Shown here one piece after another: positions 23,213 to 32,000 of a DNA stretch of 32,000 bases (position 1 is the stretch's first letter; every line of letters begins with the position of its first letter). Source of the DNA: Geobacter metallireducens GS-15 (GTDB taxonomy: Bacteria > Desulfobacterota > Desulfuromonadia > Geobacterales > Geobacteraceae); the NCBI RefSeq assembly GCF_000012925.1, contig NC_007517.1, positions 2,040,001 to 2,072,000 on the forward strand. Direction: 5' to 3'. Below the pieces are notes generated by a model that saw only the letters and a list, made by a program, of their open reading frames with translations, searched no databases and had not been told where the DNA came from. A program made the translations under genes and the position numbers.

Positions 23213-24898
23213 TTACTTCTTGTTCTTTTTGCCTCCGCCAGCCGTCAAGTAATTGGCGGTATATATATAGTCATCTATATAATCATGCTTTCCATCACCG
23301 TTGAGGTCATATGCCGGCACCTTGGCGGCTCCATTCTTGGAAAGGAAGAGTGAAAAGTCTCCTTCATCCGTCACACCGTTTTTGTCAACATCGACATCCA
23401 CCCTCGGAGCGACGGTTAAAGGATAATCTACAATTTTCTCCCCATTTACGATGGTAAGCGTAGCCTCAATTTTTCCTGCTTCAGGAACGGCTTCTATCAG
23501 CCATCGGTTGTCTCCCTGCTTTTGCAAGGACGTGAGGCGGGCTCCTCTCAGGGCAAAATTTGGCGCATTACTGCCGCTTTCAGGCAATTCAAGCAGGACT
23601 TTTATCATCATCTTCCCGTCAGTAATGCATATCGCAGGATCCTGCTTGATTGATGTGGCCACGGGTTCATCAAACAATGCCCTAAGAGCTTTTGGTGTCC
23701 TGTCACCCGAATAACCCTTGAATCGCTCAAGCACTCCCTTGAAAACCGCGTATTTTTGTTCCTGTACCGATGTGGTAGGGACCGTATGTGGAGAAATGGG
23801 TGCTGTTGGAGGCTGATGCTCTTTGTCCTCCCGGTCGGCAGCCTCCGGAGATGGTTGCCACTGCGCGGGTTGGTCGCCCAAAGCCGGCTCCTGTGCATCG
23901 GGCGATGTAGGTTCCAAGGGCGACTGAGGTGCGTCTGGTAAAATTATTGTACCTTGAGCTACAAACGGTATCCTGGAACCCTGCGTGTCCGCTGAACTCT
24001 TGTCCGCTGAACTCTTGTCCGCTGAACCCTTGTCCGCTGAACCCTTGTCCACTGAACCCTTGTCCACTGAACCCTTGTCCACTGAACTTGTGACTGAGGG
24101 AGCCAGACCTGAGGAAACCCTGCCCGAGGAGCCTTTGTCCGCGGGACCCGTGTCTGAGGAACTCTTGTCGGGATAATTTTCTGTGCTTGTGGAGCCTGTG
24201 TCAGTGGAACCCGTGTCAGTGGAACCCGTGTTTGTGGAACCTGTGTTTGTGGAACCTGTGTTTGTGGAACCTGTGTTTGTGGAACCTGTGTTTGTGGAAC
24301 CTGTGTTTGTGGAACCTGTGTTTGTGGAACCTGTGTTTGTGGAACCTGTGTTTGTGGAACCTGTGTTTGTGGAACCTGTGTCAGTGGAGCCTGTGTCAGT
24401 GGAGCCTGTGTTTGTGGAACCTCCCGTGCCTGAAGATAAGCCAGTATCATCTTTACCGTCTTCACTCGTCAAGGGGCTCTCAATTGGTTGATTCGATGCG
24501 TCAAGACCGGTTAACTGGCAGGTGAGCGCCGGTTTCCCCCACGACTTGCTGACTGGAGAAAATGTAACAGTTGCCACCGTGCCAGAACCGGAAACAGGCG
24601 GCTCATTGACCATGACTACCTGTACCGTTCCAGACGTTTCTACAACGTTCGGCACGAAAACCAGCCAGGTGGCTAAGTCACCACTGACGACCTTAGGGCT
24701 CGACAATGATGCCTTGTCGTAAGTGAGTGTAAAATCAATAGCGCCAACATTGATGAGGCCGAGAGCAACAACCCTGTATCTCCCGTTGCCCATATCCACC
24801 AGGTTGAGACCAGTGCAGGATGCCGCAGCATCAAAAGTCATTGGAGAAATGATTAGTTGAGCACCCAACAGAAGAAGGGAAAGGCTTTTGACTTTCAT
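23213..24898 (-). CDS. secreted modular protein: cohesin-like module, (GST[ND]T)n and (DK[GS]S[VA])n repeats, Pro-rich linker, unknown domain, dockerin-like C-terminus
   Basis: Signal peptide MKVKSLSLLLLGAQLIISPMTFDAAA. INVGAIDFTLTYDKASLSSPKVVSGDL...GSGTVATVTFSPV is cohesin-like. The C-terminal DVDKNGVTDEGD and DLNGDGKHDYID are two DxDxNG/DxNxDG Ca-loops about 24 aa apart, as in dockerins. GGAGG Shine-Dalgarno upstream of ATG 24898. Confidence 0.8.
   Translation of the reverse strand: MKVKSLSLLLLGAQLIISPMTFDAAASCTGLNLVDMGNGRYRVVALGLINVGAIDFTLTYDKASLSSPKVVSGDLATWLVFVPNVVETSGTVQVVMVNEPPVSGSGTVATVTFSPVSKSWGKPALTCQLTGLDASNQPIESPLTSEDGKDDTGLSSGTGGSTNTGSTDTGSTDTGSTNTGSTNTGSTNTGSTNTGSTNTGSTNTGSTNTGSTNTGSTNTGSTNTGSTDTGSTDTGSTSTENYPDKSSSDTGPADKGSSGRVSSGLAPSVTSSVDKGSVDKGSVDKGSADKGSADKSSADKSSADTQGSRIPFVAQGTIILPDAPQSPLEPTSPDAQEPALGDQPAQWQPSPEAADREDKEHQPPTAPISPHTVPTTSVQEQKYAVFKGVLERFKGYSGDRTPKALRALFDEPVATSIKQDPAICITDGKMMIKVLLELPESGSNAPNFALRGARLTSLQKQGDNRWLIEAVPEAGKIEATLTIVNGEKIVDYPLTVAPRVDVDVDKNGVTDEGDFSLFLSKNGAAKVPAYDLNGDGKHDYIDDYIYTANYLTAGGGKKNKK
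23987..24091. repeat. 15-bp tandem repeat, 7 units (gtccgctgaaccctt consensus), in frame within CDS 23213..24898
   Basis: Hand alignment: variants occur in consecutive pairs (gtccgctgaactctt x2, gtccgctgaaccctt x2, gtccactgaaccctt x2), followed by a degenerate seventh unit. Encodes DK(G/S)S(V/A). Confidence 0.95.
24181..24420. repeat. 15-bp tandem repeat, 16 units (ctgtgtttgtggaac consensus), in frame within CDS 23213..24898
   Basis: Hand alignment: units start every 15 bp from 24181. Nine consecutive units (24241..24375) are identical, and flanking units differ by 1-4 nt. The array encodes GST(N/D)T pentapeptides on the minus strand. Confidence 0.97.
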
Positions 24899-25230: not shown

Positions 25231-25869
25231 TCAGCTGTTTGTGTGAACGGCTTTGAGGAAGGAAATGGCTTCAACGGCATCGTTGTTGCCCTCGAGTTGG
25301 TAAACCTTTTGAAGAGAAGTAAGGACTGATTCGTGAAGTCTTTCAAGTTCCGCTCGTTCAGCGCAGATATGATGATCGAAGGGCTCTTCGGGAAGGAACT
25401 CCCCAGAATATTCATCCTGAGCAGCTTCGAGATATCTCCTGGCCCCGGAGATGTCTCCACGAGCCAGCATCTTGATTCCGGTCTGAGCGTATCCTTTGAA
25501 TTGGCTCGAATCAAGGGAGAAAATATTGAAATCGAGACGGATGGCTTCACCAAGAGTCATAATGGGATTAATACTGCGCGGGCCCATAAATGACTTGCGG
25601 AGTCTGCTCAAGGTGGTTTTGAAATTCTTTGCGCCGGAGACCGGGTCACAGCCAGGCCACAACATGTCAATGAGTTTGTCTCTGTGGAGCCACTGGTCGT
25701 AGGAAATGAGCAAATAGCAGAAGAGTATCCTCGCCTTCTGGCTTTCCCATAAAATGGTCATTGGGGAATTGAGATAAGAAAGTCCCAGTCCACCGAAGGT
25801 TTTTATGGAAATCTGCTCAGGGTTGACCGATCCTTTATCAACCGTTGCACCTGAAGGCTGTGGGTTCAT
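25231..25869 (-). CDS. small SARP-type transcriptional regulator (OmpR-like winged helix plus BTAD), likely counterpart of G. sulfurreducens GSU1771
   Basis: 212 aa. ISIKTFGGLGLSY...KARILFCYLLISYDQWLHRDKLIDMLWPG...AKNFKTTLSRLRKSF is a SARP DNA-binding pattern. ARGDISGARRYLEAAQDEYSGEFLPEEPF...ERAELERLH is BTAD-like. The GSU1771 link is from synteny and memory. Confidence 0.75.
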   Translation of the reverse strand: MNPQPSGATVDKGSVNPEQISIKTFGGLGLSYLNSPMTILWESQKARILFCYLLISYDQWLHRDKLIDMLWPGCDPVSGAKNFKTTLSRLRKSFMGPRSINPIMTLGEAIRLDFNIFSLDSSQFKGYAQTGIKMLARGDISGARRYLEAAQDEYSGEFLPEEPFDHHICAERAELERLHESVLTSLQKVYQLEGNNDAVEAISFLKAVHTNS

Positions 25870-26017: not shown

Positions 26018-27352
26018 CTAATTAGCCCTATTCATCGTCTTAAGGATTTCCCATCCTTTCAGGAGATCAAGCGCGCGCAACACTTGGTAATCTCCTTTCA
26101 ACTGATCATCACTCTTGGCGGCGGGAACCTTCCCTTTCTCCGTTTTCTTGTCTTCCCCCTCCACCTTCTCTCCGGACTCGAAGTGGTTTTCCAGATCCTT
26201 TTCCCGGATATGGCCATCCTTTTTCTCGGTTGGTTGAATTTCGGCACGTTCCACAATGATGTCAGGGGTTATTCCCTTTGCCTGGATCGATCGCCCGTTC
26301 GGCGTGTAGTAACGCGCTGTGGTAAGACGCAGTCCCGAATCATCAGAAAGCGGAATGATTGTCTGCACCGAACCCTTGCCAAAACTCTGCGTCCCCATAA
26401 CGACTGCCCGCTTGTGGTCCTGCAAGGCACCGGCAACGATCTCAGAAGCACTCGCACTGCCACCGTTAATGAGCACAACCATCGGATAGGCTGGTTCCGT
26501 TCCTCCCTTGTGGGCGTTGAACTGCATCCGTGAATCCTTCTCTCGACCTTCTGTATAGACAATAAGTCCTTGCTCGACAAAATGGTCTGCAACCTTGACC
26601 GCCTGGTCCAGAAGCCCGCCAGGATCGTTGCGAAGGTCAAGGACAAGCCCCTTCAAGGACCCGCCATTTTCCTCTTTCAGCGTCGCAAGAGCCTTCACCA
26701 AATCATCATCTGTCTTCTCCTGAAACTGGGCTATTCTGATGTAACCATAACCATTGTCGAGAGACGAGAAACGGACACTCTTAACCTGAATGATGTCACG
26801 TACGAGGGTGAAGTCCTTCGGCTTGTCAAATCCCTCCCGCACGATGGTCAGGATGACCTTGGTCCCCTTCGCGCCGCGCATTCGCTTTACGGCATCCATA
26901 ATGGTCATGTCCTTGGTGAAGCGGTCATCAATCTTCAAAATCTGATCGCCAGCCTTGATTCCGGCACGGAAAGCTGGGGTGTCCTCAATTGGCGAGATAA
27001 CCGTCAGGATACCATCCTTGATGGTTATCTCTATGCCGAGTCCCCCAAAGGATCCCTTGGTGTCTATCTTCATTTCCTTGTACATATCAGGAGGCATAAA
27101 GGAGCTATGGGGATCTAAAGATGCCAACATACCGTTGATGGCCCCATAGATGAGTTTCTTGGTATCGACCTCTTCGACGTAACTCTTTTTTACGATGGCG
27201 AGGACATCGGTAAATAATTCGATGGACTCATAATCGTTTCCGCCCTGTGCCGCACAGTGTTTCTGGGCAACAAAGCCTCCTCCCGCAAGCATCGCAAAGA
27301 GCACTACCGCCAACAGCGCAATTTTTTTACCCTTCCTGGTTCCAAACATCAT
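26018..27352 (-). CDS. ctpA: carboxy-terminal processing protease (S41 family, PDZ domain)
   Basis: 444 aa. FGGLGIEI PDZ region, LVLDLRNDPGGLL, INGGSASASEIVAGALQD, and SFGKGSVQT (Ser/Lys dyad context). Confidence 0.9.
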   Translation of the reverse strand: MMFGTRKGKKIALLAVVLFAMLAGGGFVAQKHCAAQGGNDYESIELFTDVLAIVKKSYVEEVDTKKLIYGAINGMLASLDPHSSFMPPDMYKEMKIDTKGSFGGLGIEITIKDGILTVISPIEDTPAFRAGIKAGDQILKIDDRFTKDMTIMDAVKRMRGAKGTKVILTIVREGFDKPKDFTLVRDIIQVKSVRFSSLDNGYGYIRIAQFQEKTDDDLVKALATLKEENGGSLKGLVLDLRNDPGGLLDQAVKVADHFVEQGLIVYTEGREKDSRMQFNAHKGGTEPAYPMVVLINGGSASASEIVAGALQDHKRAVVMGTQSFGKGSVQTIIPLSDDSGLRLTTARYYTPNGRSIQAKGITPDIIVERAEIQPTEKKDGHIREKDLENHFESGEKVEGEDKKTEKGKVPAAKSDDQLKGDYQVLRALDLLKGWEILKTMNRAN

Positions 27353-27376: not shown

Positions 27377-28561
27377 CTACCTGCACCATGACGCCGGATC
27401 GACCGGACGTCCCTGATAACGGATCTCGAAATAGAGCATATCACCCCGCGGGGAATCGACATCCCCGACACTGGCGATTGTCTCGTTTCTCGCCACCTCT
27501 GCTCCCACCCGTTTGGCGATTCGCGAAGCATGGGCGTAAAGGCTGAAAAATCCCCCGCCATGATCAACAATCACCATATTACCGTAACCTTTAAAGTAGT
27601 TTGCAAAAATGACTTTGCCTTCGTAGACAGCCTTGATATCGGCACCAGAGGGGGCTGCTATGGAAACACCATTACTTACTGTGTAGGAATTGAATTCCGG
27701 ATGTTTATGACGTCCAAATCCGCTCACAATTTTGCCACTAACAGGCAGCGACAGTCTCCCCCGCTGAGCACCGAAACCCTTGTCCGAAATGGGAGGAAGT
27801 ACCGGCGACATCCCTTTTGCCGATGGTTTCCGAGCAGCTGAAGTATAGCTTTTTCTACTCATGGCTTCAAGCTTTCGCACCATTGCCTGAAGCCTTCCGG
27901 CGTTGGCCTGGAGCTCACGCAAGGACGCCAGATGGGCCTGCTTGTCTTGCCGCACCTTTACGAGATAGGCCGCCTTGTTGCTTTTTTCGCCTGCGATCTC
28001 CTGCTTTTTCTGCTCGATGCCAATCTTGAGACGTTCCTTACGGTTGGCATCGTTTTCGAGTACCACCTTAAGCTTTGAAAGTTCCGCAATTTTCTTGTTG
28101 TAGTCGGCAAAGAGTTTTCGGTCGTTATCAATGACCGACCTCATGTACCGCAGATTTTCTACCATCTGGGGGAACGACTCAGAGGAGTAAAAAACCCTCA
28201 CATTACCGATTTCCCCGGCTTTATAGACGGCAACAAGTCGGCGCTCAATCTCATGCTTTTTCTGCTCAACTTCATTCCGTACAGTATTAATTTCCGTCTC
28301 GGTCTTGGAGATGGTTCGCTCCACGCCCTGGAGCTCCCTGGCAAGGGACGCAAACTGAGCTTCCTTTTGTTTGAGGTTCCGGTCAATGGCTTGCAGTTCG
28401 CCCGACACCTGCTGCTCCACCTTTGTGGTCTTTTTCAGAAGTTGCTTCTTCTCCTTGATTTCCTTCTTGACCCCCTGCAACTGGTCACGCACATCGGCAT
28501 CGGCTGCAGCCGCCGTAAGGAGCACCACCAGCAAAGCGGTTATGGACTGTAGCCATCTCAT
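27377..28561 (-). CDS. envC: murein hydrolase activator, EnvC-like (coiled coil plus degenerate LytM/M23 domain)
   Basis: Signal peptide, about 230 aa of heptad-rich coiled coil, and a C-terminal M23 fold. The usual HxxxD and HxH metal ligands are replaced (SNGVSI, MLYFEIR). ATGA overlap with the ftsX stop. Confidence 0.85.
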   Translation of the reverse strand: MRWLQSITALLVVLLTAAAADADVRDQLQGVKKEIKEKKQLLKKTTKVEQQVSGELQAIDRNLKQKEAQFASLARELQGVERTISKTETEINTVRNEVEQKKHEIERRLVAVYKAGEIGNVRVFYSSESFPQMVENLRYMRSVIDNDRKLFADYNKKIAELSKLKVVLENDANRKERLKIGIEQKKQEIAGEKSNKAAYLVKVRQDKQAHLASLRELQANAGRLQAMVRKLEAMSRKSYTSAARKPSAKGMSPVLPPISDKGFGAQRGRLSLPVSGKIVSGFGRHKHPEFNSYTVSNGVSIAAPSGADIKAVYEGKVIFANYFKGYGNMVIVDHGGGFFSLYAHASRIAKRVGAEVARNETIASVGDVDSPRGDMLYFEIRYQGRPVDPASWCR

Positions 28562-29508
28562 TGCGGGTTATTGATGAATCGTTTCAGGGAAGTGAGGCTA
28601 CCAAGGAACCCGAGGACCACTCCTCCGGCAAGAATTCCGGCAATATACAATGGCGGAAGGAACGAAAGCCCCGATACCGACGAGGAGAAGTTGACGAAAT
28701 TCGTCGCGCTGTGGAGAAAACCGAAAAAAGCAGCCACAAGAATGAGAAGTGACAGAACTGCTCCGGCAGCGCCCTGGATGATTCCCTCAATGAGGAAAGG
28801 AGCCTTGATGAAAAATCGGGTGGCCCCCACAAGCTCCATCACCTCAATCTCCTCTTTTCTGGCGTAGATTGTCAATTTTATGGTGTTTGACACAATAAAG
28901 AGCACTGCCATCAGGAGGAATCCTCCAAGGAGCGCTCCCACAAAGCGAAGGAAGTTCATGAACGTATTGAAGCGCCTGACCCATTCTTCGCCATACTGGA
29001 CCTCCGCTATGCCGGGAACTTTTTTGAGCCTGCCAACATAAGCCTCCATAGCGGCATCTTCACGACTATTACGCTTCAGAGTTATCTCGATGGAAGAAGG
29101 AAGCACGTCCGCCGGAACCCCTTCGAGAAGAGTTTCCTGGCCCTTCAGACGTTCGCGAAAACGCTTCATGGCTTCCTGTTTGCTGACGTACCCGACCTTA
29201 TCAGTCCCATCAATGGCCTTCACCCTCGTCATGATAGCAGAAAGTTCCTGAGGGGTTGGCTCAGTATTGAAATACGCGGTCACCTGAATCTTCCCACTCC
29301 ACTCATCGGCCGTAGACTCCAGATTCACGAAAATGAGGAGGAACAGCGAAACGATAAGAAGCGCCAGGGTTATGGTACCGATGGCGAGAACGTTCACCAG
29401 AACGTTCTGACGAATATTGAGGAGTGCCCGGGCAAAGAAGTAGCGGATCCTCCCCCCTACCCCGTCACTGGACATGGCGGGACGAATGGACGGCTTATTT
29501 CGGGACAT
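28558..29508 (-). CDS. ftsX: cell-division ABC transporter permease-like protein FtsX
   Basis: Four TM segments with a large first periplasmic loop, downstream of ftsE. I prefer ATG 29508 (GGAGGA 6 nt upstream) to the track's TTG at 29523. Confidence 0.88.
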
Positions 29509-30166
29509 CGGTATCCTCCGCAACGCGGCCCCTATCGAGCACGATAACGCGCCTATGGCTGTTCTCGATCACCCGGCGGTCGTGGGTCGCCACCACCACC
29601 GTGGTACCCTTGATGTTCGCTTCCCGGAATATGGACAGAATCTGTTCCTTGTTCTCGTCGTCCAGATTGCCGGTCGGTTCGTCTGCCAGGAGAATCTTCG
29701 GCTCATTCACCAGCGCCCGGGCCAGGGCGACCCGTTGCTGCTCCCCTCCGGAAAGCCTTAGGGGGGTGGCGTTGATCTTGTGCTCGATCCCCATTTGTTT
29801 TAGTACATGGTAGACCTTTTTGCCGATATCACGCTTACTCCAGCCAAGCACCTCAAGGGTTATGGCCACGTTTTCCAGAACCGTCCGATTGGGGAGGAGC
29901 TTGAAATCTTGGAAAACAACGCCGATGGTTCGGCGCAGAAGCGGAATCTGTGTCCGGGTGAGTCGGGTGATGTTCTGGCCGTCAACGAGGACCTGCCCCC
30001 GCGAGGGGGAAAGCGCCCCGTAGACCAGTTTCAGGAGGGTCGATTTTCCCGCACCGGAAGGGCCGGTAACAAAAACAAAGTCCCCTTTGGGGACCTTGAG
30101 GGAAACGTCGTTCAAAGCTGCCGCGTCGCTCTGATACGACAGGAAAACATTGTGGAACTGAATCAT
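29495..30166 (-). CDS. ftsE: cell-division ATP-binding protein FtsE
   Basis: [11 protein letters not shown]..., Walker [10 protein letters not shown], signature LSGGEQQR, Walker [16 protein letters not shown] 30166 has GAGGA upstream; the track's GTG extension is rejected. Confidence 0.92.
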
Positions 30167-30217
30167 CGTATCCTCTTTCCTCGTCACTGCCTCCGTGCGG
30201 TTGTTACCCGCAACGCG

Positions 30218-30640
30218 TTACCATTCTTTATACGGTTTCCCGTCAGTTCCCACCAGATCAGAACCACTATGGACATCGTAGACATTACCGGTTTCCTGTT
30301 TACCGGCGTCCGCCCCGCCAGTCGGAGCCGGGGGGGCGATAGTTTCCCAGCTGTCAGTTTTCCTGGTAAAGGGATCCGTCGGTAAACCGTGGATATATTT
30401 CTTGTCGACAAGATCTTGAAGCGTATCGGGATACTTCCCCTGGTCGGCGTAAAATTGGTCTATGCTGCTTCGGATGCTGTAGAGGTTCTCCCGCAACACT
30501 GCCTCTCTCGCCTTGATGAGGCTCCACTTGTAGCTCGGCACAGCAATGGTGGCCAGGATGCCGATGATGGTCACAACAATCATCAACTCCACAAGCGTAA
30601 AGCCTTTGCTTTTTGTTAGCATTTTTCGGAAGCTCGGCAC
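30218..30640 (-). CDS. GspG-like type II secretion pseudopilin (OxpG-like)
   Basis: Prepilin motif KSKG|FTLVELMIVVTIIGILATIAVP, then a GspG-like YADQGKYPDTLQDLV...LPTDPF region. The start is GTG 30640 (AGGA 8 nt upstream) or ATG 30622. Confidence 0.8.
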   Translation of the reverse strand: MPSFRKMLTKSKGFTLVELMIVVTIIGILATIAVPSYKWSLIKAREAVLRENLYSIRSSIDQFYADQGKYPDTLQDLVDKKYIHGLPTDPFTRKTDSWETIAPPAPTGGADAGKQETGNVYDVHSGSDLVGTDGKPYKEW

Positions 30641-30641
30641 G

Positions 30642-31157
30642 TTACCAGTCCTTGTATTTTGTCCCGTCGATGGCCGTACCCTCGCTCAGGGAATAGACGT
30701 CATACACGTCCGAATTGTCCCACGTCGTGCTATCGGGCTCGTCCTTGTAGGAACGCAGACCCCATTCGGGCTTTTCCCCTGACGCGGGACGGTTGAAGGG
30801 ATCTACGGGAATCCTCCGGAGGAACTTTTTCTTGGTCGACTTCGCTTCGCCGCCGAAATCGGTACCCGTAACCAGAACCTCCAGGGTTTCGGGATATCCT
30901 GTCTCGTTCAGGATCTGTTTCCCCTTGTGGGCGTCGTCATAGGCTTTTTTGTACTCGTCTATGGCAGTGCGGATCTCCCTGAGGGATCTGCGCAGCTCAA
31001 GCTCCTTGTTCCGCTTGACGGTCATCTGGGTAAAGGGAACTATCACTGTCGCCAGTATACCGAGAATGGTTACAGTCATTATGAGCTCAATAAAGCTCAA
31101 TCCCTTACGGTTTCGTATATACCTCACTGTCGAGACACCGATAAACTTCACGCTCAC
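30642..31157 (-). CDS. GspG-like pseudopilin paralog (171 aa as drawn; start uncertain)
   Basis: RKG|LSFIELIMTVTILGILATVIVP prepilin motif. GYPETLEVLV...IPVDPF. The C-terminus SDVYDVYSLSEGTAIDGTKYKDW parallels GNVYDVHSGSDLVGTDGKPYKEW of the neighbouring gene. The drawn GTG 31157 overlaps the upstream stop (GTGA); an internal GTG would give the leader MRYIRNRKG. Confidence 0.75.
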   Translation of the reverse strand: MSVKFIGVSTVRYIRNRKGLSFIELIMTVTILGILATVIVPFTQMTVKRNKELELRRSLREIRTAIDEYKKAYDDAHKGKQILNETGYPETLEVLVTGTDFGGEAKSTKKKFLRRIPVDPFNRPASGEKPEWGLRSYKDEPDSTTWDNSDVYDVYSLSEGTAIDGTKYKDW

Positions 31158-32000
31158 TTAACTTCGACAACCGTATTGTAGGGTACGACATCAATCGGCT
31201 TATTTGCCTGGTCAGTGAAGTTCACGCTCTGGAGGCCGAGGCTGGCCGGCCCCTTGTTCTTGGCAGTGAAGGTCGCGGTGAGGAGCGAACCGGCACCGTC
31301 GATGCCTTCGGCACCGGTTCGCGCCAATGTAATGGTCACCCTTCCCTTCGCCTTATCTACCTGGGCGTTGAAGCTGGTCGGCTTGCCATCCCGATTCAGG
31401 AACGTCCCTTCGACTGCCCCCACATAATCTATGAAAATCGGATCGTAGATAAGGACAAAGGGCGCCTTAAGGAGGCCCTTGACGTCGGAGACCCTGATCT
31501 CGACCTTGAACTGGGAGCCGAGATTCACAGCTGCCGGTGCAGATATATTAAGGCTTCCGCGCACGGCTGGCGCAGGTGCTGCAGCAACAGGGACGGCAGA
31601 CGCTGCTGCCACCGTCGCGGCAGGAGCCGCAGGAGAAGCCGGTACGGGAAGGGGCGCAACCGCCTGGGATTGCGCTGTGGACGGCGGGGCAGGCTGCTGA
31701 CCTGGAGCCGGCGCCGCCGATTGTTTGACTTCCGGGGAAGTCGTTGTCTGCGGGGCTGCCGTGGGTGCCGGACTACCGGGAACGGGTTGTAGAGGCGCAA
31801 CTCTCTGGGCAGGTGCAGAGACAGAAGCAGGAACCGGTGCAGGCGATGCTGCCGGCTGCTTGACGGTTTTGGGTTGGCCGATGGCAAACTCCGGCTCAAG
31901 CTCAAATGAAGCGAATGGTTTGACAACCGAGGGATCGTCCTCCTTGCCCGACCAGAAGGAAACAAGATCAGGCTCGGGAACGGTGACGGAACGGACCAGA
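31154..32000 (-). CDS. partial ORF (5' end outside the window): Pro/Ala-rich linker followed by a C-terminal cohesin-like module
   Basis: I translated this frame codon by codon from 31612 to 31999 and found no stop, so the track's GTG at 31612 is internal. The C-terminus LNISAPAAVNLGSQFKVEIRVSDVKGLLKAPFVLIYDPIFIDYVGAVEGTFL...GAGSLLTATFTAKNKGPASL is cohesin-like. Confidence 0.75.
   Translation of the reverse strand, partial: LVRSVTVPEPDLVSFWSGKEDDPSVVKPFASFELEPEFAIGQPKTVKQPAASPAPVPASVSAPAQRVAPLQPVPGSPAPTAAPQTTTSPEVKQSAAPAPGQQPAPPSTAQSQAVAPLPVPASPAAPAATVAAASAVPVAAAPAPAVRGSLNISAPAAVNLGSQFKVEIRVSDVKGLLKAPFVLIYDPIFIDYVGAVEGTFLNRDGKPTSFNAQVDKAKGRVTITLARTGAEGIDGAGSLLTATFTAKNKGPASLGLQSVNFTDQANKPIDVVPYNTVVEVK

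What the first reader, a model, noticed from the sequence alone, without database searches (positions are those of the whole stretch)
30218..32000. Tandem GspG-like pseudopilin paralogs and a cohesin-ending ORF abut ftsEX on the same strand
Two genes carry the prepilin cleavage/methylation motif (KG|FTLVELM.. and KG|LSFIELI..) and GspG-like cores. They share a distinctive C-terminal signature, YDV(H/Y)S.S......DG..YK(E/D)W-stop. The gene upstream of them overlaps the first by GTGA and ends in a cohesin-like module preceded by a Pro/Ala-rich linker of about 90 aa. Only 51 nt separate the last pseudopilin from ftsE, and that gap holds a short stem without a U-tract. Pseudopilus genes and the FtsEX-EnvC-CtpA cell-wall remodelling genes may therefore be co-transcribed, which is unusual.

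From memory, G. sulfurreducens has an atypical type II secretion cluster with the pseudopilin OxpG, needed for reduction of insoluble Fe(III) and Mn(IV) oxides, in this general neighbourhood. A cohesin module attached to such a cluster has not been functionally explained.
Basis: partly seen in the sequence, partly recalled or inferred. Interest (0 to 1): 0.68.

Follow-up and report, generated by a model that had tools for sequence, protein, structure and literature searches.

The report
Known Geobacter Pul/OxpG secretion cluster
The end of the window holds the tail of the already published Geobacter Pul/OxpG secretion-machine gene cluster (a secretin ending in a cohesin module, then two pseudopilins), which in this bacterial order runs straight into the cell-division genes ftsEX and is probably transcribed with them.

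Summary
The cohesin-ending ORF is the last 281 residues of an 861-aa secretin lipoprotein, PulQ. The two pseudopilins are PulG (171 aa) and OxpG (140 aa). The ftsE-proximal one is 64% identical to the G. sulfurreducens protein at the oxpG position and to Geomonas proteins named OxpG. An overlapping contig shows pulF-E-M-N-O-P upstream. This is the "atypical type II secretion system" of Mehta 2006. The same gene order, pulF…pulQ-pulG-oxpG-ftsE-ftsX-M23-ctpA, was tabulated for Pelobacter carbinolicus in 2012, and its proximity to cell-division genes was remarked there.

Co-transcription is well supported but not shown:
- The 51-nt gap has no terminator or promoter signal.
- In 38 of 39 related metagenomic loci ftsE follows oxpG, with a median gap of 4 nt.
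- Published RNA-seq shows ftsX rising with pul genes when the repressor GSU1771 is deleted.

The linkage is confined to the Desulfuromonadales/Geobacteraceae loci sampled. The secretin-cohesin-PulG-OxpG unit also occurs in Acidobacteriota, a Gammaproteobacteria MAG and, with only marginal cohesin matches, Nitrospira and Nitrosomonas.

The "distinctive" C-terminal motif is a shortened GspG C-terminus. The cohesin's role is still unexplained. A secreted cohesin/dockerin-like protein encoded 6 kb downstream is an untested candidate partner. Verdict: already known, modest residual interest.

The parts
31154..32000 (-). 3' part (last 281 codons plus stop) of pulQ. The full protein is an 861-aa secretin lipoprotein with TPR, STN, Secretin_N and Secretin domains, a Pro/Ala linker and a cohesin. 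The gene runs off the window end.
   Evidence: Translation. The full gene is on L001 4550-7135, which is 99.99% identical to the window. Pfam Secretin E = 3.6e-38, plus STN, Secretin_N and TPR. The N-terminus carries the lipobox LSGC.
31562..31855 (-). Pro/Ala-rich linker of PulQ: 98 aa, 32% Ala and 26% Pro.
31157..31561 (-). C-terminal cohesin module of PulQ.
   Evidence: Pfam Cohesin 51 bits, E = 2.2e-13. AF2 model with pLDDT 89.2. Foldseek top 50 hits are all cohesins, best 2xdh at E = 3.5e-10. The module is conserved at the secretin C-terminus in the Desulfuromonadales/Geobacteraceae loci, Acidobacteriota and one gamma-proteobacterial MAG.
30642..31157 (-). pulG: GspG-like pseudopilin of 171 aa. 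GTG start in a 4-nt GTGA overlap with the pulQ stop. The 19-aa leader ends in RKG|LSFIE.
   Evidence: 63% identity to the G. sulfurreducens gene at the pulG position, which has an 18-aa leader. The Logan gene call of 145 aa starts at Met27 and so loses the prepilin leader.
30218..30640 (-). oxpG: GspG-like pseudopilin of 140 aa from the GTG start, or 134 aa from the ATG at 30622. Cleavage motif KG|FTLVE.
   Evidence: 64% identity to the G. sulfurreducens and Geomonas OxpG proteins. Same position in G. sulfurreducens.
30167..30217 (-). oxpG-ftsE intergenic gap of 51 nt. It holds the ftsE Shine-Dalgarno sequence (AAGAGGA) and an insignificant 5-bp stem.
29495..30166 (-). ftsE
   Evidence: TIGR02673 314.7 bits, above the 264.85 cutoff.
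28558..29508 (-). ftsX. It overlaps ftsE by 14 nt if the 316-aa start is used. The longest ORF starts at 29523.
   Evidence: TIGR00439 291 bits, above the 255 cutoff. Gene call of 316 aa. Spacing.
27377..28561 (-). EnvC-like coiled-coil M23 protein, overlapping ftsX by 4 nt.
   Evidence: Peptidase_M23 E = 7.9e-27 and CC_PcsB. EnvC model 116.5 bits, below the 270 cutoff.
26018..27352 (-). ctpA, a C-terminal processing S41 peptidase.
   Evidence: TIGR00225 355.3 bits, above the 218.6 cutoff; Peptidase_S41 and PDZ domains.
25231..25869 (-). SARP/BTAD-type regulator, orthologue of G. sulfurreducens GSU1771. In that species GSU1771 binds the pulF promoter and represses it.
   Evidence: BTAD domain. 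71% identity to the protein at the same position in G. sulfurreducens. EMSA and RNA-seq in PMC10599522.
23213..24898 (-). Possible accessory gene, membership not established. It encodes a secreted 561-aa protein with an N-terminal cohesin, (GSTNT)n repeats and a C-terminal dockerin-like module. It is a candidate partner of the PulQ cohesin.
   Evidence: The context is mixed in more distant homologues.

Best explanation
Window 30218-32000 is the 3' end of this organism's copy of the Geobacter Pul/Oxp 'atypical type II secretion' operon, pulF-pulE-pulM-pulN-pulO-pulP-pulQ-pulG-oxpG. The organism is most likely G. metallireducens or a very close relative.

**How the machine is built (shown by sequence).**
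- The parts are a GspF-like platform protein and a PilB/GspE-like ATPase with a c-di-GMP-binding MshEN N-terminus.
- A PilM/N/O/P-type alignment complex takes the place of GspC/L/M.
- The outer-membrane pore is a secretin lipoprotein.
- Two GspG-like pseudopilins are present. Presumably the cell's general prepilin peptidase cleaves them after Gly-1, and they then form a short periplasmic pseudopilus.

**What it does (inferred from G. sulfurreducens).** There the system is required to export the multicopper protein OmpB and to reduce insoluble Fe(III) and Mn(IV) oxides. This rests on Mehta 2006 as cited in PMC3543383.

**Transcription (inferred).** Transcription starts upstream of pulF, at a promoter repressed by the GSU1771-type regulator that is encoded at the far end of the array. 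It most likely reads through oxpG into ftsE-ftsX-envC-ctpA. The secretion machine and the FtsEX-EnvC-CtpA cell-wall remodelling module would then be made from one tightly packed, partly translationally coupled transcript. Internal promoters that supply basal ftsEX expression are not excluded.

**Cohesin.** The cohesin on a 98-aa flexible linker at the secretin C-terminus is a conserved part of this secretin family. I take it to be a protein-docking module. Its ligand is unknown.
For: **Identity of the system.**
- OxpG is 64% identical to the G. sulfurreducens and Geomonas OxpG proteins. PulG is 63% identical to its G. sulfurreducens counterpart.
- Gene order is the same in G. sulfurreducens and in the published P. 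carbinolicus Pul-1 table.
- Upstream genes were recovered on L001.
- The MshEN domain and c-di-GMP motif score 42.4 bits, above the 38 cutoff.

**Pseudopilins.**
- Both carry the N_methyl motif with Gly-1 and Glu+5.
- They align over their whole length with a bona fide GspG, including the C-terminal D..S...DG...W.

**Read-through into ftsE.**
- No terminator-like or sigma-70-like site lies in or near the gap, and the stem is not significant.
- Spacing along the array is -4, +1, +51, -14, -4 and +24 nt.
- The oxpG-ftsE gap is 3-19 nt in the five relatives L007-L010 and L089.
- 38 of 39 cohesin-seeded metagenomic loci have ftsE directly after oxpG, with a median gap of 4 nt and 25 of 38 at 7 nt or less.
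- GSU1771 binds the pulF promoter. In the delta-gsu1771 strain pulF, pulP, pulG and ftsX are all upregulated, log2 fold change 1.8-2.3 (PMC10599522).

**Cohesin.**
Against: **No transcript mapping.** No transcript map or TSS data for this junction was available.

**Patchy RNA-seq support.** The delta-gsu1771 table lists ftsX. My look-up did not find oxpG, ftsE, GSU1773 or GSU1772 in it, so the co-regulation is patchy.

**Room for an unseen promoter.**
- The 51-54-nt gaps in this organism and in G. sulfurreducens could hold a promoter that the consensus scan misses.
- Metagenomic gaps reach 94, 96 and 239 nt in L094, L139 and L097.
- Cell-division genes would be expected to need expression independent of a repressible secretion operon.

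**The pul unit works without ftsEX next to it elsewhere.**
- P. carbinolicus Pul-2 sits inside comM.
- L014 lacks ftsEX downstream.
- No Nitrospira, Acidobacteriota or Nitrosomonas locus has the linkage.

**Weak family membership.** No component reaches a curated equivalog cutoff for T2SS or T4P. The OxpG model matched GspG structures only weakly, with TM 0.4-0.5 and no hit at E of 1e-3 or better.

**Function is transferred.** The secretion function comes from one species' genetics and was not tested here.
Confidence: 0.78

Rival explanations
1. The adjacency is only tight genome packing. ftsE-ftsX-envC-ctpA would be an independent transcription unit with its own promoter inside oxpG or in the 51-nt gap, so the pul genes and the division genes would share no functional or regulatory link.
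For: - The pul unit occurs without ftsEX in P. carbinolicus Pul-2, in L014 and in every locus outside the Desulfuromonadales/Geobacteraceae group.
- Division genes plausibly need constitutive expression.
- Only ftsX, not ftsE, M23 or ctpA, was found in the delta-gsu1771 table.
- The promoter scan covers only sigma-70 consensus sites.
Against: - 25 of 38 related loci have an oxpG-ftsE gap of 7 nt or less. Any ftsE promoter there must lie inside pul coding sequence, and transcripts coming from upstream have nothing to stop them.
- No terminator-like site follows oxpG.
- ftsX rises together with pul genes when the pulF repressor is removed.
- The linkage holds in 38 of 39 metagenomic loci and in 4 of 5 genome loci of this group.
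Confidence: 0.2
2. The machine is not a secretion pseudopilus. It would be a surface type IV pilus, adhesive or conductive, with PulG or OxpG as the fibre subunit.
For: - The architecture is T4P-like: PilM/N/O-type genes, an ATPase that scores best against PilB (559.7 bits), and a secretin that scores about equally against PilQ and GspD.
- The best PDB sequence hits for the N-terminal helix are Geobacter PilA-N and type IV pilins.
- A preprint predicted OxpG to be aromatic-dense like e-pilins (10.1101/668343).
Against: - The globular parts and C-terminal motif align with GspG. The only full-domain structural matches are the T2SS pseudopilins EpsG and PulG, and these are weak.
- No retraction ATPase and no PilY1-type tip genes lie in the cluster.
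- The only genetics cited in the papers read here points to protein export (PMC3543383).
Confidence: 0.1
3. The PulQ cohesin does not dock another protein. It would be a structural or targeting appendage, for example a replacement for the pilotin-binding S-domain or a spacer that contacts the cell wall.
For: - PulQ is itself a lipoprotein, so it may need no pilotin, and the C-terminus is where S-domains sit in GspD-type secretins (my own knowledge).
- The dockerin-like neighbour is missing from L007, L009 and L010 within 10 kb.
- More distant homologues of that neighbour sit beside amidase genes rather than pul genes.
Against: - The fold matches dockerin-binding cohesins at TM 0.7-0.8.
- The module is conserved across phyla at the same position, behind a long flexible linker that suits capture of a partner.
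- A dockerin-like protein is encoded nearby in four loci: the window, L087, L008 and L143.
Confidence: 0.35

Closest known systems
G. sulfurreducens Pul/OxpG 'atypical type II secretion system', GSU1784 (pulF) to GSU1776 (oxpG) (Mehta et al. 2006, as cited in PMC3543383 and PMC10599522)
   Same: - The gene order is the same, from pulF to oxpG and on through ftsE, ftsX, M23, ctpA, GSU1771, the cohesin/dockerin-like gene and yibQ.
- Identities to the window proteins are 64% for OxpG, 63% for PulG and 71% for the regulator.
- PulQ also ends in a Pfam Cohesin domain there.
- The oxpG-ftsE gap is similar: 54 nt against 51 nt.
   Different: - It is a different species.
- The gap sequence is not conserved except for the Shine-Dalgarno region.
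- The window's cohesin/dockerin-like protein is longer, 561 against 453 aa, because of (GSTNT)n repeats.
Pelobacter carbinolicus Pul-1 cluster, Pcar_1685 to Pcar_1672 (Aklujkar et al. 2012, PMC3543383, Table S4)
   Same: The published table lists pulF-pulE-pulM-pulN-pulO-pulP-pulQ-pulG-oxpG-ftsE-ftsX-M23-ctpA-yibQ. The text remarks on the proximity of the pul genes to cell-division genes 'as in Geobacter genomes'.
   Different: - P. carbinolicus has a second copy, Pul-2, inserted in comM, with a third pseudopilin TklG in the cluster and no ftsEX.
- The passages I retrieved from the paper and its Table S4 do not mention the cohesin.
Canonical Gsp/Pul/Eps type II secretion system (Klebsiella Pul, Vibrio Eps)
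   Same: - It also has a GspF-like platform, a GspE-like ATPase and a secretin.
- Its pseudopilins share the GspG-type N-terminus, the 'YP.T...L' and 'P.DP..W' motifs, and the C-terminal D..S...DG...W.
   Different: - The Pul/Oxp cluster has no GspC, GspL or GspM, and no GspH-K minor pseudopilins.
- It uses PilM/N/O/P-type genes instead.
- Its ATPase has an MshEN N-terminus, and its secretin has TPR repeats plus a C-terminal cohesin.
- Its pseudopilins lack the roughly 7-residue C-terminal loop.
- All models score below their curated cutoffs.
Type IVa pilus PilMNOPQ machinery
   Same: It shares PilM-, PilN- and PilO-like proteins, a small PilP-position protein, a secretin lipoprotein and a PilB-like ATPase.
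   Different: - No PilT or PilU is present.
- No AMIN domains occur on the secretin.
- The subunits are GspG-like rather than pilin-like beyond the N-terminal helix.
- The function reported in G. sulfurreducens is export.
Cohesin-dockerin modules, both cellulosomal and non-cellulosomal (e.g. PDB 2xdh from Archaeoglobus fulgidus)
   Same: The PulQ C-terminal module has the cohesin fold. A neighbouring secreted protein carries a dockerin-like duplicated Ca2+-loop motif.
   Different: - Sequence identity to solved cohesins is only about 18%.
- The host protein is a secretin, not a scaffoldin.
- No binding partner has been shown.
- The window's dockerin-like segment is below the Pfam cutoff, 15.7 against 22.9 bits. 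Its G. sulfurreducens orthologue is just above, at 24.3 bits.

Membership tests
Geobacter Pul/Oxp atypical T2SS (Mehta 2006; nomenclature of Aklujkar 2012) | An OxpG orthologue that is the last pseudopilin gene of the cluster | tested here: met
   64% identity to G. sulfurreducens P0083/P0096 and to the Geomonas proteins named OxpG. Same position in L087.
Geobacter Pul/Oxp atypical T2SS (Mehta 2006; nomenclature of Aklujkar 2012) | A PulG paralog and the PulQ secretin lipoprotein directly upstream, preceded by pulF-E-M-N-O-P | tested here: met
   L001 is 99.99% identical to the window and carries all of them. Its first 30 aa match the PulF C-terminus at 28 of 30 positions. The order matches published Table S4.
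Geobacter Pul/Oxp atypical T2SS (Mehta 2006; nomenclature of Aklujkar 2012) | [quoted passage not shown] | not testable with these tools
   This is genetics from G. sulfurreducens only (cited).
Canonical T2SS (Gsp) | A major pseudopilin that meets the GspG models (TIGR01710, PF08334) | tested here: not met
   TIGR01710 scores 48.8 and 36.3 bits against a cutoff of 88.85. PF08334 scores 16.5 bits against 21 for OxpG and gives no hit for PulG. GspG is still the best-scoring family, and the alignment with a true GspG is full-length.
Canonical T2SS (Gsp) | A GspC/GspL/GspM assembly platform and GspH-I-J-K minor pseudopilins in the cluster | tested here: not met
   The cluster has PilM_2-, PilN- and PilO-type genes and a 204-aa protein with no family. 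There are no further prepilin genes.
Canonical T2SS (Gsp) | GspD, GspE and GspF equivalogs | tested here: not met
   GspD scores 160.6 bits against a cutoff of 351.35 and GspE 521.8 against 630.25. GspF scores 314.3 against 424, tested on the Geomonas orthologue.
Type IVa pilus system | PilB, PilM and PilQ equivalogs, plus a PilT retraction ATPase | tested here: not met
   PilB scores 559.7 bits against 675.65, PilM 70.8 against 133 and PilQ 153 against 284.35. No PilT-type gene lies in the cluster.
Prepilin-peptidase-dependent proteins (type IV filament subunits) | A short basic leader, Gly at -1, a hydrophobic +1 residue, Glu at +5 and a hydrophobic helix | tested here: met
   The motifs are KG|FTLVE and KG|LSFIE. 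N_methyl and TIGR02532 score above their cutoffs for both proteins. Cleavage itself is not testable here.
Cohesin (PF00963) | Sequence match above the Pfam gathering score, and a cohesin beta-sandwich fold | tested here: met
   51 bits against a cutoff of 24.1. Model pLDDT 89. Best Foldseek hit 2xdh at E = 3.5e-10 and TM 0.78/0.83, and all of the top 50 are cohesins. The domain was not listed when the whole 861-aa protein was scanned.
Cohesin (PF00963) | Binds a dockerin | not testable with these tools
   Only a candidate partner was found, at window 24898..23213.
FtsEX-EnvC-CtpA module | FtsE and FtsX equivalogs followed by a coiled-coil M23 protein and an S41 protease | tested here: met
   FtsE scores 314.7 bits against a cutoff of 264.85, FtsX 291 against 255 and the prc model 355.3 against 218.6. 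EnvC has the M23 and coiled-coil domains but scores 116.5 against 270.

The most novel reading that the evidence does not exclude
The tie between the secretion genes and the cell-wall genes may be functional rather than an accident of packing.

- The multimeric secretin would carry one cohesin per subunit, each on a 98-aa flexible tether.
- These cohesins would dock the dockerin-like C-terminus of the secreted cohesin/dockerin protein encoded at window 24898..23213, or dock a Pul substrate.
- Obligatory co-expression with FtsEX-EnvC-CtpA would let the secretin be inserted through peptidoglycan where it is being remodelled at division sites.

This would be the first cohesin-dockerin pair acting in a Gram-negative secretion machine. 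It would also be a new route for substrate or accessory recruitment, replacing GspC.
Probability: 0.12. Interest if true: 0.65.

Novelty: already known. Interest (0 to 1): 0.3.

Why it matters
**Known importance.** In G. sulfurreducens the Pul/Oxp system is reported to be needed for reduction of insoluble metal oxides. It also belongs to the GSU1771 regulon, which controls electroactive biofilms, so its genes matter for bioremediation and bioelectrochemistry.

**What this check adds.**
1. oxpG and ftsE are almost fused in most relatives, with a median gap of 4 nt. Insertion mutants in oxpG or pulG are therefore likely to be polar on ftsEX-envC-ctpA. Phenotypes assigned to the pseudopilins should be checked with non-polar alleles.
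2. The secretin-cohesin plus PulG plus OxpG unit is not confined to Geobacter. It also occurs in Acidobacteriota and a Gammaproteobacteria MAG. The secretin and both pseudopilins are also in Nitrospira and Nitrosomonas, where the cohesin match is only marginal. It therefore defines a widespread, unstudied branch of type IV filament machines.
3. The cohesin is a conserved feature with no known ligand, and a dockerin-like neighbour gives a concrete hypothesis to test.

Tried and rejected
1. **Stem in the gap as a terminator or regulatory element: rejected.** It has 5 bp, no U-tract and z = +0.64 against shuffles. The scan found no terminator there, and the sequence is not conserved in G. sulfurreducens.
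2. **Terminator-like hairpin inside ftsE (30098-30076): treated as chance.** It lies in coding sequence, and the region holds fewer such sites than shuffled sequence does, 7 against 8.8.
3. **Riboswitch or other RNA: none.** There is no Rfam hit in the window. No c-di-GMP riboswitch lies upstream of pulF in L087, L007, L008 or L009, although a 2007 paper lists pulF among GEMM-associated gene families.
4. **The "distinctive" C-terminal signature as something new: rejected.** It aligns with the canonical GspG C-terminus, minus a loop of about 7 residues.
5. **Structural proof that OxpG is GspG-like: inconclusive.** The model has pLDDT 76, and no Foldseek hit reaches E = 1e-3. EpsG and PulG match at TM 0.4-0.5.
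6. **Extending the contig upstream with the ATPase:** L001 and relatives were used instead.
7. **The dockerin-like neighbour as a consistent pul partner: only partly borne out.** It sits at the same place in G. sulfurreducens, Geomonas and one MAG. It is absent within 10 kb in L007, L009 and L010. More distant homologues sit next to AMIN-amidase genes or elsewhere.
8. **Literature:** no paper was found for a cohesin on a secretin, for GSU1776-8 locus tags, or for ftsX together with type II secretion in Geobacter.


Full report
**1. The observation**

All genes in 22-32 kb of the window lie on the minus strand. Read in the direction of transcription, the order is as follows.

| Gene | Window coordinates | Notes |
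|---|---|---|
| ORF running off the window end | stop at 31156..31154 | last 281 codons in the window |
| PulG-like pseudopilin | 31157..30642 | 171 aa, GTG start |
| OxpG-like pseudopilin | 30640..30218 | 140 aa |
| gap | 30217..30167 | 51 nt |
| ftsE | ATG at 30166 | |
| ftsX, EnvC-like M23 protein, ctpA | down to 26018 | |

- Both small proteins carry a prepilin leader with Gly-1 and Glu+5 (KG|FTLVE and KG|LSFIE). Both pass Pfam N_methyl and TIGR02532, and both have GspG as their best NCBIfam family.
- They are full-length paralogs: 32% identity, E = 3e-23.
- The ORF upstream overlaps PulG in a GTGA.
- That ORF has a 98-aa linker with 58% Ala+Pro.
- It ends in a cohesin. Pfam gives 51 bits. 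The AF2 model has pLDDT 89. The best Foldseek match is the non-cellulosomal cohesin 2xdh at E = 3.5e-10, and the top 50 matches are all cohesins.
- The stem in the gap exists, but it folds no better than shuffled sequence (z = +0.64).

**2. What the cohesin-ending ORF is, and what lies beyond the window**

A Logan contig, L001, is 99.99% identical to the window over 7.65 kb and extends 6.3 kb past position 32000.

- The cohesin-ending ORF is an 861-aa secretin lipoprotein with the lipobox LSGC. Its parts, in order, are TPR repeats, STN, Secretin_N, Secretin, the linker and the cohesin.
- Upstream of it are a 204-aa protein with no family, then PilO-, PilN- and PilM-like genes.
- Next upstream is a 573-aa T2SSE ATPase. 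It has an MshEN domain and a c-di-GMP-binding motif that scores 42.4 bits against a cutoff of 38.
- At the start of L001 are the last 30 codons of a GspF-like gene. They match G. sulfurreducens PulF at 28 of 30 positions.

**3. Identity of the system**

- The ftsE-proximal pseudopilin is 64% identical to the G. sulfurreducens protein at the same position. [quoted passage not shown]
- The 171-aa paralog is 63% identical to the G. sulfurreducens gene at the pulG position.
- The G. sulfurreducens locus (L087) has the same array: pulF-pulE-M-N-O-P-pulQ-pulG-oxpG, a 54-nt gap, then ftsE-ftsX-M23-ctpA. Its PulQ is 827 aa with a Pfam Cohesin. A BTAD regulator, a 453-aa protein and yibQ follow.
- Locus tags in PMC10599522 fix the numbering: GSU1784 = pulF, GSU1779 = pulP, GSU1777 = pulG, GSU1774 = ftsX. 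By position, oxpG is then GSU1776 and the BTAD regulator is GSU1771. The window's BTAD protein is 71% identical to the latter.
- The 100%-identical database protein sits on a contig of 3,997,420 bp, and the next-best hit (93%) is from G. hydrogenophilus. From memory, that length is the G. metallireducens GS-15 chromosome. I treat the organism name as likely but not proven.

**4. What is already published**

- Aklujkar et al. 2012 (PMC3543383) describe this as the Pul system "required for secretion of OmpB", citing Mehta 2006. They name the pseudopilins PulG, OxpG and TklG.
- Their Table S4 lists pulF-pulE-pulM-pulN-pulO-pulP-pulQ-pulG-oxpG-ftsE-ftsX-M23-ctpA-yibQ as one cluster.
- A second copy, Pul-2, is inserted in comM without ftsEX.
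- Jaramillo-Rodriguez et al. 2023 (PMC10599522) show that GSU1771 binds the pulF promoter in EMSA and acts as a repressor. In delta-gsu1771 biofilms pulF, pulP, pulG and ftsX are all upregulated, with log2 fold changes of 1.76, 2.29, 2.13 and 2.30; the text also names pulQ.

The cluster, its name, its neighbours and part of its regulation are therefore in the literature.

**5. Co-transcription with ftsEX**

Within the window:
- The consensus scan finds no promoter-like or terminator-like site in or next to the gap.
- The gap contains a good Shine-Dalgarno sequence (AAGAGGA) for ftsE.
- Spacing along the array is -4, +1, +51, -14, -4 and +24 nt.

Comparatively:
- In a genome scan seeded with OxpG, ftsE-ftsX-envC-ctpA follows oxpG in 4 of 5 Desulfuromonadales/Geobacteraceae loci. 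Gaps in these loci and in L089 are 3-19 nt.
- In an independent metagenome scan seeded with the cohesin, 38 of 39 loci with enough downstream sequence have ftsE directly after oxpG on the same strand. The median gap is 4 nt, and 25 of 38 gaps are 7 nt or less.
- Gaps that short leave no room for a terminator plus a promoter. In this lineage ftsE must receive transcription coming out of the pul genes.

Together with the published rise of ftsX in the repressor mutant, I rate read-through as likely, at about 0.7-0.8.

Caveats:
- No transcript mapping was available.
- My look-up of the published table found only ftsX among the four downstream genes.
- The 51-54-nt gaps in G. metallireducens and G. 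sulfurreducens, and the 94-239-nt gaps in a few metagenomic loci, could hold non-consensus promoters.
- An additional internal promoter for basal ftsEX expression is plausible.

**6. How general the linkage is**

- The unit made of secretin, PulG-like and OxpG-like genes also occurs in Nitrospira, Acidobacteriota, Nitrosomonas and Gammaproteobacteria MAGs. None of those loci has ftsEX next to it.
- In Nitrospira, pulF-pulE-pilM… follow oxpG. In a Terriglobales MAG a urocanase gene does.
- The ftsEX fusion is therefore a trait of the Desulfuromonadales/Geobacteraceae loci sampled, not of the machine.
- A family-specific HMM finds the cohesin at the secretin C-terminus in all the Desulfuromonadales/Geobacteraceae loci, most Acidobacteriota loci and one gamma-proteobacterial MAG. 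It scores only marginally in Nitrosomonas and Nitrospira.
- The cohesin is thus an old, conserved feature of this secretin family.

**7. What kind of machine it is**

No component reaches a curated equivalog cutoff.

| Component | Model | Score | Cutoff |
|---|---|---|---|
| ATPase | PilB | 559.7 | 675.65 |
| ATPase | GspE | 521.8 | 630.25 |
| Secretin | GspD | 160.6 | 351.35 |
| Secretin | PilQ | 153 | 284.35 |
| PilM-like | PilM | 70.8 | 133 |
| PulF (Geomonas orthologue) | GspF | 314.3 | 424 |
| OxpG | GspG | 48.8 | 88.85 |
| PulG | GspG | 36.3 | 88.85 |

- The cluster has no GspC, GspL or GspM, and no GspH-K. It is a hybrid, with T4P-type alignment proteins and GspG-type subunits, which matches the published label "atypical".
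- Aligned with a bona fide GspG (Pfam T2SSG E = 1.7e-44, from the Nitrosomonas locus), PulG and OxpG match over their full length.
- The shared end "YDV.S.S….DG..Y..W" corresponds to the GspG end "FDLFS--FGKDGQPGGAGEDADITNW" minus about seven residues. The signature is family-typical, not peculiar.
- The AF2 model of OxpG (pLDDT 76) gave only weak structural matches. The ones that cover the globular domain are EpsG and PulG. I count this as inconclusive.

**8. Something else in the neighbourhood**

Two genes after ctpA, past the GSU1771-like regulator, lies a 561-aa secreted protein (window 24898..23213). In order, it has:
- an N-terminal cohesin, at 27.8 bits against a cutoff of 24.1;
- (GSTNT)n repeats;
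- a conserved middle domain;
- a C-terminal dockerin-like motif, DVDKNGVTDEGDF…DLNGDGKHDYIDDYIYTANYL.

Dockerin_1 scores 15.7 bits in the window, below the 22.9 cutoff, and 24.3 bits in the G. sulfurreducens orthologue.

Orthologues sit at the same place in G. sulfurreducens, Geomonas azotofigens and a Desulfuromonadales MAG. All 38 database homologues are "hypothetical", and they share a nearly invariant DLNGDG.xDYxDDxIYTANYL.

This is an obvious candidate ligand for the PulQ cohesin, but the evidence is only co-location:
- It is absent within 10 kb in three other loci.
- More distant homologues lie beside AMIN-amidase genes or elsewhere.
- The family is therefore linked to cell-wall genes at least as much as to pul.

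I could not test binding.

**9. Verdict**

The system is already known and named, and its adjacency to ftsEX is already in print.

The residual value lies in four things:
- the near-fusion of oxpG and ftsE across the lineage, which carries a practical warning about polar mutants;
- the cross-phylum conservation of the cohesin-bearing secretin with its two pseudopilins;
- the unexplained cohesin;
- a concrete dockerin-like candidate partner for it.

Noticed in passing
window 23213-24898 (-): A secreted 561-aa protein. It has an N-terminal cohesin (27.8 bits against a cutoff of 24.1), (GSTNT)n repeats that give a spurious Pentapeptide_2 hit, and a C-terminal dockerin-like double Ca2+-loop motif. 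Orthologues lie at the same place in G. sulfurreducens, Geomonas and a Desulfuromonadales MAG. It is a candidate partner for the PulQ cohesin.
   Followed up: partly
window 25231-25869 (-): A BTAD/SARP regulator, 71% identical to the G. sulfurreducens protein at the GSU1771 position. GSU1771 is published as a direct repressor of the pulF promoter, so the regulator is encoded at the far end of the same array.
   Followed up: partly
window 30076-30098 (-), inside ftsE: A terminator-like hairpin with a 10-bp stem and a 3-nt loop, followed by TTTTTGTT, within the first 30 codons of ftsE. The region has fewer such sites than shuffled sequence, so it is probably chance.
   Followed up: no
L100 4426-5199; L007 8639-9415; L010 5286-5846; about 20 metagenomic loci: A third prepilin-like gene of 180-275 aa lies between pulQ and pulG. 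Its leaders end in NGFTFLMAI or DGFTYILAL, it lacks Glu at +5, and it has no Pfam hit. It may be the TklG pseudopilin, which is encoded elsewhere in G. sulfurreducens-type genomes.
   Followed up: partly
L144 8664-10681; JGI 3300075153 contig: More distant homologues of the dockerin-like protein lie directly after an AMIN + Amidase_3 (AmiC-like) gene. This links the family to peptidoglycan amidases, the enzymes that FtsEX-EnvC activates.
   Followed up: no
L014 10448-12944 (-): In one Geobacteraceae MAG, pulE has moved to a convergent position after oxpG. It is preceded by a dockerin-less member of the same family as the window's 561-aa protein, and ftsEX is not adjacent.
   Followed up: partly
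L024 1158-1595 and 10369-11013; L011 9392-16978: The Nitrosomonas version of the cluster starts with a canonical GspG (T2SSG E = 1.7e-44) before pulF, and has a further 214-aa gene after oxpG. In Nitrospira the order is pulQ-pulG-oxpG-…-pulF-pulE-pilM….
   Followed up: no
L001 7210-7647 (= window 30642-31079): The automatic gene call for PulG (145 aa) starts at Met27 and cuts off the prepilin leader and cleavage site. The 171-aa GTG start matches the G. sulfurreducens orthologue.
   Followed up: yes
L001 4550-7135 (PulQ, full length): Pfam Cohesin is not reported when the whole 861-aa protein is scanned. It is clear on the C-terminal fragment, and it is on record for the G. sulfurreducens orthologue. 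The Pro/Ala-rich linker probably biases the score.
   Followed up: partly
L007 15688-15763 (+): A c-di-GMP-I riboswitch (49.1 bits) lies about 1 kb downstream of ctpA in a Desulfuromonadales MAG. Nothing comparable lies upstream of pulF in any locus scanned.
   Followed up: no
L145 313-1338: A multicopper-oxidase gene (Cu-oxidase_2/3) lies about 9 kb from another homologue of the dockerin-like protein, in a cluster with an S8 peptidase and Ig-like proteins. Its relation to OmpB is unknown.
   Followed up: no
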